Positions 28,411 to 29,626 of a DNA stretch of 64,000 nt are shown piece after piece. Made by a program: the position numbers and the translations under genes. The notes beneath the pieces were generated by a model, which worked only from the letters and a program-made list of their open reading frames with translations, was not told where the DNA came from and did no database searches. Origin of the DNA: Chlamydiales bacterium (GTDB lineage Bacteria > Chlamydiota > Chlamydiia > Chlamydiales > JAAKFR01). The stretch spans positions 231,331 through 295,330 of the forward strand of contig JACKPM010000003.1 of NCBI GenBank assembly GCA_024233495.1, in the 5' to 3' direction. Every line of letters starts with the position of its first letter. Position 1 is the stretch's first letter.

Positions 28411-28586
28411 TTGCATCTAGCGCGCAGGCTGATAGTGCGACAGGTAAAAAAAACATTGCCTAAAGCTGGATCCTCAATGAAATTTAAGGGCTGCTTAGCG
28501 GTTTTTGAGATGGAGAGTTATCCAGTATGGCCCCTGATTATGAAAAGTTTGATTTTATATGGAGATTAAATAGAGTGTTTCCGGTG

Positions 28587-28596
28587 CCCCCCCCCC
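28587..28596 (+). repeat. Homopolymeric C10 tract in the 5' region of paralog B
   Basis: Ten consecutive C, counted directly. The tract lies between a GTG (28575) with an upstream GGAG and the long ORF, which is in a different frame. Confidence 0.9.
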
Positions 28597-28714
28597 TGCT
28601 CAACCTTGCGATTCTATATTTGGTCTGGATCGTGAGCTTGTTGAAAGCATAAGAGCTGACCTTCCAAATGCAGCTTTTACCCACCTTTGCCAACTGGCCA
28701 AGGCAAGTGGTTCT

Positions 28715-29626
28715 GTGAGTGCCAAAGAGCACGCAGGCCGCGTGATTCCCCTACTTTCTGATGATGACGCTCGTTCCCTAGAATCCATTGCCATAAAAGA
28801 GATCAATGGTGCAGAAGAATCTGTAAGGTATGTTGCCGAAGAGATTCGGCTGTTAGTTGCAACACGTTTTGAGACTGCATTCTATGATAATGTAAAAGAT
28901 CAAATCATTTCTGAGAATTTTGCTCAGGCTTATGCTTTCATTGCTGGTGCAAATTCCCCATATAAAACATTCGCGTGGTACGAGCTTGGTCGTGCTTTGG
29001 TTCGCAACCAAATGTTTACGACGGCAGAAAGATGTTTGGAAGCGATGGATGAATCAAGGATTGAGACTCATTGTTTACGTTGCTTGTGGGAGCATGCTCA
29101 AGCTTTTCACGTGGAGAAACCCGACTATTTATGGGTACGGACTCAAGTGGAAGCAACGATAGGGATCTTTACGGATACTGACTTTGATCGTATTCCAAAA
29201 GACTCTTTTGTTGATAGGTTTACTCCTACTAGACCAGTTATTGATAGGGTTATTGAGAAGTGCTCTGAAGATGAGATTAAGGCGATTTGCTCTCGTGCTA
29301 GGAAGCCTGATGGTTTTTTCCGACCACAAAACTTAGTTGGGGAATTTATTGCAACTGCGTTGGAAGTAAAGCTAATAGCACGCAATGAGACGGTTCGCAA
29401 GGCTCATAGAGGTGATGTTCTTGGTAATCAAGAGCTAATTCTTGTAAAGCAAGCTGAGATTCAAGATTTGCGAGAACGTTTTAGAGCTGAAGAGCTTGGA
29501 AGTAAAAATGAGAGAGAGCTTATCCGTCAAATACTTGATGCAGAAGCAAAGCTTACTCGGCTTAATGCATGCGTTCAAAGGCGTGCAAGCCAATCATCTC
29601 AGCTACAGAGAGTCAACCTAGTTTAG
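28715..29626 (+). CDS. Hypothetical protein, tandem paralog B (unknown family), 5' end ambiguous or possibly phase-variable
   Basis: 303 aa from GTG 28715. The same frame stays open upstream to 28574 (TAG at 28571-28573) without a start codon. The C-terminal extension is coiled-coil-like (KQAEIQDLRERFRAEELGSKNERELIRQILDAEAKLTRL). Confidence 0.65.
   Translation: MSAKEHAGRVIPLLSDDDARSLESIAIKEINGAEESVRYVAEEIRLLVATRFETAFYDNVKDQIISENFAQAYAFIAGANSPYKTFAWYELGRALVRNQMFTTAERCLEAMDESRIETHCLRCLWEHAQAFHVEKPDYLWVRTQVEATIGIFTDTDFDRIPKDSFVDRFTPTRPVIDRVIEKCSEDEIKAICSRARKPDGFFRPQNLVGEFIATALEVKLIARNETVRKAHRGDVLGNQELILVKQAEIQDLRERFRAEELGSKNERELIRQILDAEAKLTRLNACVQRRASQSSQLQRVNLV

What the first reader, a model, noticed from the sequence alone, without database searches (positions are those of the whole stretch)
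28559..28717. C10 homopolymer separates a plausible start codon from the long ORF of paralog B: a candidate slipped-strand phase switch (or a sequencing error)
Seen: paralog A starts at tatatGGAGataaaATG. The same box recurs before paralog B (tatatGGAGattaaatagaGTG) with a GTG at 28575, 10 nt after GGAG. With the 10 C present (28587-28596), that GTG frame stops at TAA 28650. The long ORF frame is closed upstream by TAG 28571-28573 and has no canonical start until GTG 28715. It nevertheless stays open for 47 codons upstream of 28715 (SVSGAPPPAQPCDSIFGLDRELVESIRADLPNAAFTHLCQLAKASGS). Within these, GLDRELVES parallels GFSRDIAEN at residues 8-16 of paralog A. Adding one C (11) or removing two (8) fuses GTG 28575 to the long ORF, giving MFPVPPPPAQPCDSIFGLDRELVES.... 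Known: poly-G/C tracts of 8 or more nt are classic contingency loci (Neisseria, Haemophilus, Campylobacter) and have been noted in some Chlamydia genes. Inference: this is either on/off or long/short switching of this protein, or a homopolymer miscall.
Basis: partly seen in the sequence, partly recalled or inferred. Interest (0 to 1): 0.6.

Follow-up and report, generated by a model that had tools for sequence, protein, structure and literature searches.

The report
Poly-C run breaks orphan chlamydial gene
A run of ten C's sits four codons into the real start of an orphan gene of an uncultured environmental chlamydia and puts it out of frame, which is the known pattern of a slippage-prone on/off switch, but with no reads or second strain I cannot tell a switch from a one-base miscall or early gene decay.

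Summary
Every coordinate and the frame arithmetic in the observation are correct. Three lines of evidence show that paralog B's coding region extends upstream of the called start, GTG 28715.
- The 19 codons just upstream align in register with paralog A (p = 3e-4).
- AlphaFold places a confident first helix there.
- A 32-nt upstream box containing GGAG is 27/32 identical before both paralogs.

That frame has no ATG, GTG or TTG upstream of 28715. The only well-placed start, GTG 28575, lies in another frame, and the C10 run (28587-28596) is the junction between the two.

The assembly shows no general homopolymer problem. Frame breaks at 249 A/T runs of 8 or more are no commoner than at random sites. 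G9 runs in secY and mnmG, and a G8 in uvrB, are in frame. A second accessory gene, an Inc-like metallophosphatase, is broken at a C11 in the same direction, and a giant gene carries an in-frame C12.

In a poorer related MAG, G10 runs break Lon and a PBP, so miscalls do occur in this family.

Verdict: a candidate contingency locus of a known kind (CT166, pmpG, Cpn1054). Odds: real switch about 0.45, miscall 0.25, decay 0.2, recoding 0.06.

The parts
27649..28410 (+). Paralog A (253 aa, P0001). It is intact, with ATG 5 nt after GGAG.
   Evidence: 51% identical to B over 239 residues
28540..28571 (+). Conserved upstream box with GGAG (28561-64). It is 27 of 32 nt identical to 27619-27650 before paralog A. 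B's ATA 28570 sits at the position of A's ATG.
   Evidence: alignment; identity counted by direct reading
28527..28529 (+). Alternative ATG in the same frame as GTG 28575, with GGAG 28512-15 lying 11 nt upstream.
   Evidence: ORF 28527..28652
28571..28573 (+). TAG that closes the long frame upstream.
28575..28577 (+). GTG, the most plausible start of paralog B. It is the first canonical start after the box, 10 nt after GGAG, and is in a different frame from the long ORF.
28587..28596 (+). C10 homopolymer, the junction between the start-codon frame and the long ORF frame.
28650..28652 (+). TAA that ends the 25-codon GTG frame when the run is 10 C.
28574..28714 (+). 47 open codons of the long frame with no start. 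Codons 29-47 (28658-28714) are homologous to A12-30 and form the first confident helix of the model.
   Evidence: p=3e-4; H30-45, pLDDT about 80
28715..29626 (+). Paralog B as gene callers see it (303 aa, P0004, GTG start). It has no internal lesion, and its tail is a predicted coiled coil.

Best explanation
Paralog B is a single gene. Its translation starts just after the conserved GGAG box, most likely at GTG 28575. Its fifth and following codons are a run of C's coding for prolines. In this assembly the run is one base out of register, so ribosomes starting at GTG 28575 stop after 25 codons. The 342 codons downstream of the run have no usable start before GTG 28715, and a start there would remove the first helix of the protein.

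A C10 run is inherently prone to slipped-strand mispairing during replication. The most likely reading is therefore a hypermutable on/off (contingency) switch, caught here with the OFF length as the population majority.

Shown: the run, the frames, that the coding region extends upstream of 28715, and that the assembly handles other homopolymers cleanly.

Inferred: that run length actually varies in the population, and that the switching is used by the organism.
For: 1. The coding region extends upstream of the called start.
- The ungapped BLAST alignment to paralog A begins at B residue 29.
- The in-register BLOSUM62 score of B29-47 against A12-30 is +21, against a null of -15 +/- 8.5 (p = 3e-4). 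The other two frames score -16 and -14.
- AlphaFold gives helix 30-45 at pLDDT about 80, upstream of V48.

2. A 32-nt box with GGAG is 27/32 identical before both paralogs. This places B's start at about 28570-28577.

3. The long frame has no ATG/GTG/TTG between 28574 and 28715.

4. The assembly is not prone to homopolymer errors.
- Frame junctions at A/T runs of 7-9+ and G/C runs of 6-8 occur at the random-site rate of about 2%.
- Of 288 runs of 8 or more, only 8 lie at junctions. Six of these have a canonical start within about 13 codons of the run, as expected at gene boundaries. One (C2:208144) has its first start 15 codons after the run. The other is the C11 in the Inc-like gene.
- G9 in secY and mnmG, and G8 in uvrB, are in frame.

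5. The downstream ORF has no further lesion in 350 codons and has coding-type codon usage (+47).

6. The same genome has a C11 separating an Inc-like membrane N-terminus from a Metallophos domain, off in the same direction, and an in-frame C12 24 codons into a 3,630-codon gene. All three genes are lineage-specific.

7. Poly-Pro runs in this genome are normally encoded with interrupted codons. Of 18 runs of four or more prolines in long ORFs, only the one encoded by the C12 has a C-run longer than 6.

8. There is precedent in Chlamydia. In CT166, poly-G at gene positions 29-37 is ON at 9 G, and 10 G (OFF) is the majority of reads (PMC4514472). pmpG has variable poly-G/C frameshifts (PMC6740158).
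Against: - No read, strain or ortholog data exist, so length heterogeneity, the defining feature, is untested.
- Codon-usage support for 28598-28714 is weak. The margin is -1.1, where 97.7% of true 39-codon windows are above 0. It is still the best of the three frames.
- The N-terminal similarity is not significant as a free local alignment (p about 0.1). It is significant only in the fixed register.
- mutS and mutL are intact, so there is no mutator background.
- Runs of 10 or more are only modestly enriched genome-wide, and I could not show that they are enriched at 5' ends (3 of 7).
- In related MAG G006, G10 runs split Lon, a PBP and a DUF255 protein, which are near-certain miscalls. An error of this kind is therefore realistic.
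- B's ATA at the position of A's ATG could be a lost start codon, a second lesion that would favour decay.
Confidence: 0.45

Rival explanations
1. Assembly or sequencing miscall. The true run has the in-frame length, and paralog B is an ordinary intact gene starting at GTG 28575 (or ATG 28527). The gene caller then fell back to GTG 28715.
For: - This is a draft MAG of 27 contigs.
- Homopolymers of 10 or more are the hardest sites for every sequencing platform.
- In another MAG of the same family, G10 runs split Lon exactly within its substrate-binding domain. They also split a PBP between its dimerisation and transpeptidase domains, and a DUF255 protein. This shows such miscalls reach public MAGs.
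- Both out-of-frame runs in this genome err in the same direction, as systematic under-calling would.
Against: - This assembly shows no excess of frame breaks at 249 A/T and 39 G/C runs of 8 or more.
- G9 in secY and mnmG, G8 in uvrB, two other 9-mers and the C12 are all in frame.
- The only two broken runs are in lineage-specific accessory genes, and none is in a conserved gene.
- Two of three long coding runs being wrong would need a per-run error rate far above what the 9-mers suggest.
Confidence: 0.25
2. Fixed frameshift, meaning gene decay. B is a young pseudogene, or survives only as an N-terminally truncated product from GTG 28715. The run is simply where the inactivating slip happened.
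For: - B is one of two tandem paralogs, so it may be redundant.
- The codon at the position of A's ATG is ATA in B, which could be a second lesion.
- The leader 28598-28714 has weak codon-usage signal.
- GTG 28715 has only a weak AAGG 11 nt upstream.
- The genome holds other decaying genes (earlier notes).
Against: - There is no stop or further frameshift in 350 codons, and codon usage downstream is normal.
- The 19 codons just upstream of 28715 are conserved at least as well as the 19 just downstream (+21 against +1).
- A run this long would revert readily, so a 'fixed' state is hard to keep.
Confidence: 0.2
3. Recoding. The gene is expressed from the 10-C template, either by RNA-polymerase slippage that adds one C to the transcript or by a -1 ribosomal slip on CCC codons. 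This would yield a 25-aa peptide plus some full-length protein.
For: - Re-pairing after a -1 slip on a C run is perfect.
- The C11 gene in contig 6 needs the same direction of shift.
- A predicted hairpin lies just after the run, at -24.9 kcal/mol and z = -2.2.
Against: - The hairpin starts 1 nt after the run, not 5-9 nt as in known -1 sites.
- Its z-score is marginal and vanishes in a longer context (z = -0.15).
- From my own knowledge, documented bacterial transcriptional slippage concerns A/T runs.
- Two loci sharing a direction is a 50% coincidence.
- No orthologs exist to show that the out-of-frame layout is conserved.
Confidence: 0.06

Closest known systems
Poly-G run at the 5' end of the Chlamydia trachomatis gene CT166 (Borges et al. 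2015, PMC4514472)
   Same: - A G/C homopolymer of 9-10 nt lies within the first dozen codons.
- One length gives the full protein, and a neighbouring length gives an early stop.
- The OFF length was the majority of reads in clinical isolates.
- The organism is an obligate intracellular chlamydia.
   Different: - In CT166 heterogeneity was measured in reads at 130-470x. Here nothing could be measured.
- The protein is unrelated: the one here is an orphan helical protein.
- The host organism here is an uncultured environmental chlamydia, not a member of Chlamydiaceae.
Poly-G/C frameshift hotspots in the paralogous Chlamydia families pmpG (PMC6740158) and Cpn1054. The latter is Viratyosin et al. 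2002, cited in PMC4514472 and PMC3290821. That paper is not held, so its details come from my own knowledge.
   Same: - The run sits in one member of a locally duplicated, fast-evolving family.
- Frameshifted copies otherwise look intact, which was read as temporary OFF states.
- The companion C11 case in this genome is in an Inc-like gene, as in the Cpn1054 family.
   Different: - Those families have many members and many strains, which show variable run lengths. This family has two members in one genome, and only one carries a run.
- There is no sequence similarity to Pmp or Cpn1054 proteins.
Classical contingency loci of Neisseria, Haemophilus and Campylobacter, and the coding poly-C runs of Bordetella bvgS and M. 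tuberculosis glpK (10.1101/717272; PMC6321876)
   Same: The mechanism is the same: slipped-strand mispairing in an intragenic G/C run toggles translation.
   Different: - Those are demonstrated, reversible switches, often with dozens of loci per genome.
- Here there are three coding runs of 10 or more, with no population data.

Membership tests
Homopolymer-driven phase-variable (contingency) gene | A G/C homopolymer of about 8 nt or more lies inside the coding sequence or promoter. | tested here: met
   C10 at 28587-28596, 9 nt after the GTG 28575 codon. The coding region extends across it.
Homopolymer-driven phase-variable (contingency) gene | A change of +/-1 unit switches between a full-length and a truncated product. 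| tested here: met
   Frames read directly. With 10 C the GTG frame stops at 28650. The long frame is offset by one base.
Homopolymer-driven phase-variable (contingency) gene | Run length differs within a population or between strains. | not testable with these tools
No other contig or genome carries the locus.
Homopolymer-driven phase-variable (contingency) gene | Switching of expression is reversible. | not testable with these tools
   The organism is uncultured, and no expression data were reachable.
Homopolymer-driven phase-variable (contingency) gene | The gene is a surface or host-interaction accessory gene, not a housekeeping gene. | tested here: inconclusive
   - The family is an orphan found only in this genome.
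- It has no Pfam/NCBIfam domain and no fold match, so its function is unknown.
- It is accessory, and the two other long coding runs are in effector-like genes.
Programmed -1 frameshift or transcriptional-slippage recoding site | A stimulatory RNA structure lies at the canonical spacing from the slippery run. | tested here: not met
   The hairpin begins 1 nt after the run. Its z-score is -2.2 in isolation and -0.15 in context.
Programmed -1 frameshift or transcriptional-slippage recoding site | The out-of-frame arrangement is conserved among orthologs. | not testable with these tools
   No orthologs exist in any database searched.
Pseudogene | Further disabling lesions or relaxed constraint are seen downstream. 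| tested here: not met
   The frame is open for 350 codons, with a coding codon-usage margin of +47. The only possible second lesion is ATA at the position of A's ATG.

The most novel reading that the evidence does not exclude
An environmental, probably protist-associated, chlamydia may run a small 'phasome'. Three lineage-specific, effector-like genes each carry a sense-strand poly-C run of 10-12 nt near the 5' end:
- this orphan paralog
- an Inc-anchored metallophosphatase
- a gene of about 3,650 codons

These genes would switch on and off stochastically. That would extend contingency-locus biology beyond the vertebrate-pathogen Chlamydiaceae, to a symbiont that faces no adaptive immunity.
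Probability: 0.3. Interest if true: 0.5.

Novelty: new member of a known kind. Interest (0 to 1): 0.35.

Why it matters
If the run really varies, it would be evidence that environmental chlamydiae also use slipped-strand switches on accessory host-interaction genes, as their pathogenic relatives do. It would also give a handle on an orphan gene family of unknown function.

There is a practical point too. The database gene call (303 aa from GTG 28715) is almost certainly truncated. Annotators should flag this gene, and the C11-split Inc-phosphatase, as frameshifted at homopolymers rather than as short genes.

If it is a miscall, the finding is ordinary.

Tried and rejected
- **Other copies of the locus.**
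  - An exact-protein look-up of A and B found nothing.
  - A flank pattern with a variable gap found nothing in metagenome contigs or genome contigs.
- **Homologs.** Nothing beyond A and B themselves turned up in four searches:
  - 30 relatives
  - the 5.8-billion-protein search
  - the profile search of 1.84 billion representatives
  - Pfam and NCBIfam
- **Function from fold.** The AlphaFold model (pLDDT 70) gave no PDB match below E = 0.1 and no TM-score above 0.26. It shows only generic helical repeats.
- **Orthologs of the C11-split phosphatase**, wanted to compare run lengths. None exist in 29 family genomes.
- **Non-canonical starts** (ATA 28616, CTG 28625, ATA 28649). Rejected, because no Shine-Dalgarno sequence precedes them and such codons initiate poorly (own knowledge).
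- **Free local alignment of the N-termini.** Not significant (p = 0.1). It was replaced by the in-register test.
- **Startless-leader length as a statistic.** The value of 47 codons ranks only 20th-22nd of 1,164 long frames, many of them shadow ORFs, so it is not informative.
- **Enrichment of long runs at 5' ends.** With 3 of 7, this is not significant by my estimate.

Full report
**1. The observation**

The sequence is as described:
- TATATGGAGAT at 28556-28566
- TAG at 28571-73
- GTG at 28575-77
- ten C at 28587-28596

The GTG frame gives 25 codons and stops at TAA 28650-52. The long frame is open from 28574 for 350 codons. Its first canonical start is GTG 28715, which is also the start used for the 303-aa protein held in the public protein collection (P0004).

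The same 11-mer precedes paralog A at 27635-27645, and A starts at ATG 27649. A second possible start, ATG 28527, lies in the same frame as GTG 28575.

**2. Does the coding region really cross the run?**

This is the key premise, and I tested it four ways.
- BLASTP of A against the stop-to-stop translation of B gives one ungapped alignment (51% identity, E = 2e-84). It starts at B residue 29, which is 19 codons upstream of GTG 28715.
- With the register fixed by that alignment, B29-47 against A12-30 scores +21 in BLOSUM62. The null from 20,000 shuffles is -15.2 +/- 8.5 (p = 3e-4). The same DNA in the other two frames scores -16 and -14. The 19 codons just downstream of 28715 score only +1. A free local alignment of the N-termini alone is not significant (p about 0.1).
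- An AlphaFold model from the two-sequence alignment (mean pLDDT 70) has its first confident helix at residues 30-45 (pLDDT about 80). Residues 1-28 are disordered. A start at V48 would remove that helix.
- The DNA before both genes shares a 32-nt box, 27619-27650 against 28540-28571, with 27 identical positions including GGAG. The proteins themselves are only about half identical, so the start of B is expected right after the box.

One result points the other way. The codon-usage margin of 28598-28714 is -1.1, where 97.7% of true 39-codon windows are positive. It is still the best of the three frames, and A and B as a whole have below-average margins.

On balance I put about 85-90% on the coding region extending across the run.

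**3. What kind of genome and gene this is**

The window is part of contig 3 of a 27-contig, 1.72-Mb, 47% G+C draft genome of an environmental chlamydia.

A and B are a true orphan pair. No homolog was found in 30 relatives, in 5.8 billion proteins, or by a profile search of 1.84 billion representatives. They have no Pfam or NCBIfam domain. The model is all-helical with a long coiled-coil tail in B, and it has no significant PDB fold match. Function is unknown.

**4. Miscall or real? Indirect tests**

I therefore asked whether this assembly mishandles homopolymers.
- Sites where one long frame ends and another begins occur at the same rate of about 2% at A/T runs of 7, 8 and 9+, at G/C runs of 6-8, and at random positions.
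- Of 288 runs of 8 or more, eight are at such junctions. Six have a canonical start within about 13 codons of the run, as expected at gene boundaries. One (contig 2: 208144) has its first start 15 codons after the run. The remaining one is a C11 in contig 6.
- G9 runs in secY and mnmG, and a G8 in uvrB, are in frame. So are two other 9-mers and a C12.

This argues against a general error problem. It only loosely bounds the error rate at 10-12-mers.

There is a sobering control. In another MAG of the same family (G006, 61% complete), G10 runs split three genes:
- Lon, inside its substrate-binding domain
- a penicillin-binding protein, between its dimerisation and transpeptidase domains
- a DUF255 protein

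Those are almost certainly miscalls.

**5. Context in the same genome**

G/C runs of 9 or more number 15, and runs of 10 or more number 7. That is a few-fold more than the decay of shorter runs predicts (my extrapolation). Three of the seven runs of 10 or more are sense-strand poly-C in the 5' part of lineage-specific genes:
- this one
- a C12, in frame, 24 codons after a TTG start of a 3,630-codon frame. This was already noted by an earlier agent (e1-3650397).
- a C11 at contig 6: 26994-27004

The C11 separates a roughly 100-residue N-terminus with two hydrophobic lobes, typical of inclusion-membrane proteins, from a 440-residue frame with a calcineurin-like phosphoesterase domain. It is off in the same direction as the present case. 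The phosphatase has no ortholog in 29 family genomes.

Poly-proline runs elsewhere are encoded with mixed codons. CCC makes up 26% of Pro codons, and of 18 runs of four or more prolines, only the one encoded by the C12 has a C-run above 6. The homopolymers are therefore not a by-product of coding prolines.

Runs of 10 or more occur in 22 of 29 family genomes. They include in-frame runs 7-21 codons after starts. mutS and mutL are present.

**6. Mechanism**

A C10 run in coding DNA slips during replication at high frequency in every bacterium where this has been measured (established knowledge). Whatever the consensus length, this gene's expression will therefore flicker.

The most likely reading (about 0.45) is a contingency-type on/off switch seen in its OFF majority state.

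The rivals are:
- **Miscall of an in-frame run (0.25).**
- **Fixed frameshift, with B decaying or made only as a helix-less product from GTG 28715 (0.2).** B's ATA at the position of A's ATG could be a lost start and would favour this reading. The clean 350-codon frame argues that any such event is recent.
- **Recoding by transcriptional or ribosomal -1 slippage (0.06).** The predicted hairpin starts 1 nt after the run, and its z-score is marginal.

**7. Comparison with the known**

This is the pattern described for three Chlamydia cases:
- C. trachomatis CT166: poly-G at gene positions 29-37, where 9 G is ON and 10 G (OFF) is the majority of reads (PMC4514472).
- The pmpG paralogs, with variable poly-G/C and frameshifted copies that otherwise look intact (PMC6740158).
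- The Inc-like Cpn1054 family of C. pneumoniae, cited in PMC4514472 and PMC3290821. The paper itself is not held.

Two defining features of a contingency locus are met: a run in the coding sequence, and a frame toggle. The decisive one, length heterogeneity, could not be tested. It is therefore a candidate new member of a known kind, in a lineage and gene family where this has not been reported.

Earlier notes from this scan report similar poly-C breaks in other chlamydia-like genomes. I treat these as leads only.

**8. Verdict**

- The gene call from GTG 28715 is very probably truncated.
- Interest is moderate to low (0.35). The find is tidy and annotation-relevant, and its only new aspect is the lineage. 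A single pile-up of the source reads would settle it.

Noticed in passing
G000 contig 6: 26994-27004 (L004 695-705): A C11 run is the exact junction between an ORF of about 100 residues with two hydrophobic lobes (Inc-like) and a 440-codon frame with a Metallophos (PPP-type, GDxxDRG/GNHE) domain. It looks like one gene, out of frame in the same direction as the present case. No orthologs exist in 29 family genomes.
   Followed up: partly
G000 contig 2: 39567-39578 (L005 368-379): A C12 run lies in frame, 24 codons after a TTG start of a 3,630-codon frame. An earlier finding of this scan (e1-3650397) already reported it.
   Followed up: partly
G000 contig 4: 207820-207868 (L011 1021-1069): A G8-C-G8-C-G31 block sits in the gap between the terminator of an outer-membrane-protein-like gene and a convergent CPBP-type membrane protease gene. 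It is either a real giant G run or an assembly artefact.
   Followed up: no
G000 contig 2: 182221-182243 (L009 1022-1044): C11-TGGA-G8 is a perfect G/C hairpin made of two homopolymers. No long ORF (100 codons or more) spans it.
   Followed up: no
L028, L029, L031 (genome G006, same family): G10 runs split Lon protease, a DUF255 thioredoxin-like protein and a penicillin-binding protein. These are probable homopolymer miscalls in that low-completeness MAG, and they serve as a warning for any poly-G/C 'switch' called from MAGs.
   Followed up: partly
L034-L037 (genome G014, contig 57): A single 86-kb contig holds about 20 G/C runs of 10-19 nt, many with several frames open at once. It may be a high-G+C foreign element or contaminant.
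   Followed up: no
window 28575-28652: The 25-codon OFF-state product (VFPVPPPLLNLAILYLVWIVSLLKA) is strongly hydrophobic and the length of a membrane helix. This is probably a by-product of off-frame reading.
   Followed up: no
window 28597-28649: A predicted RNA hairpin begins 1 nt after the C run. The 94-nt fold (28597-28690) that contains it is -24.9 kcal/mol with z = -2.2. The signal vanishes in a longer context.
   Followed up: yes
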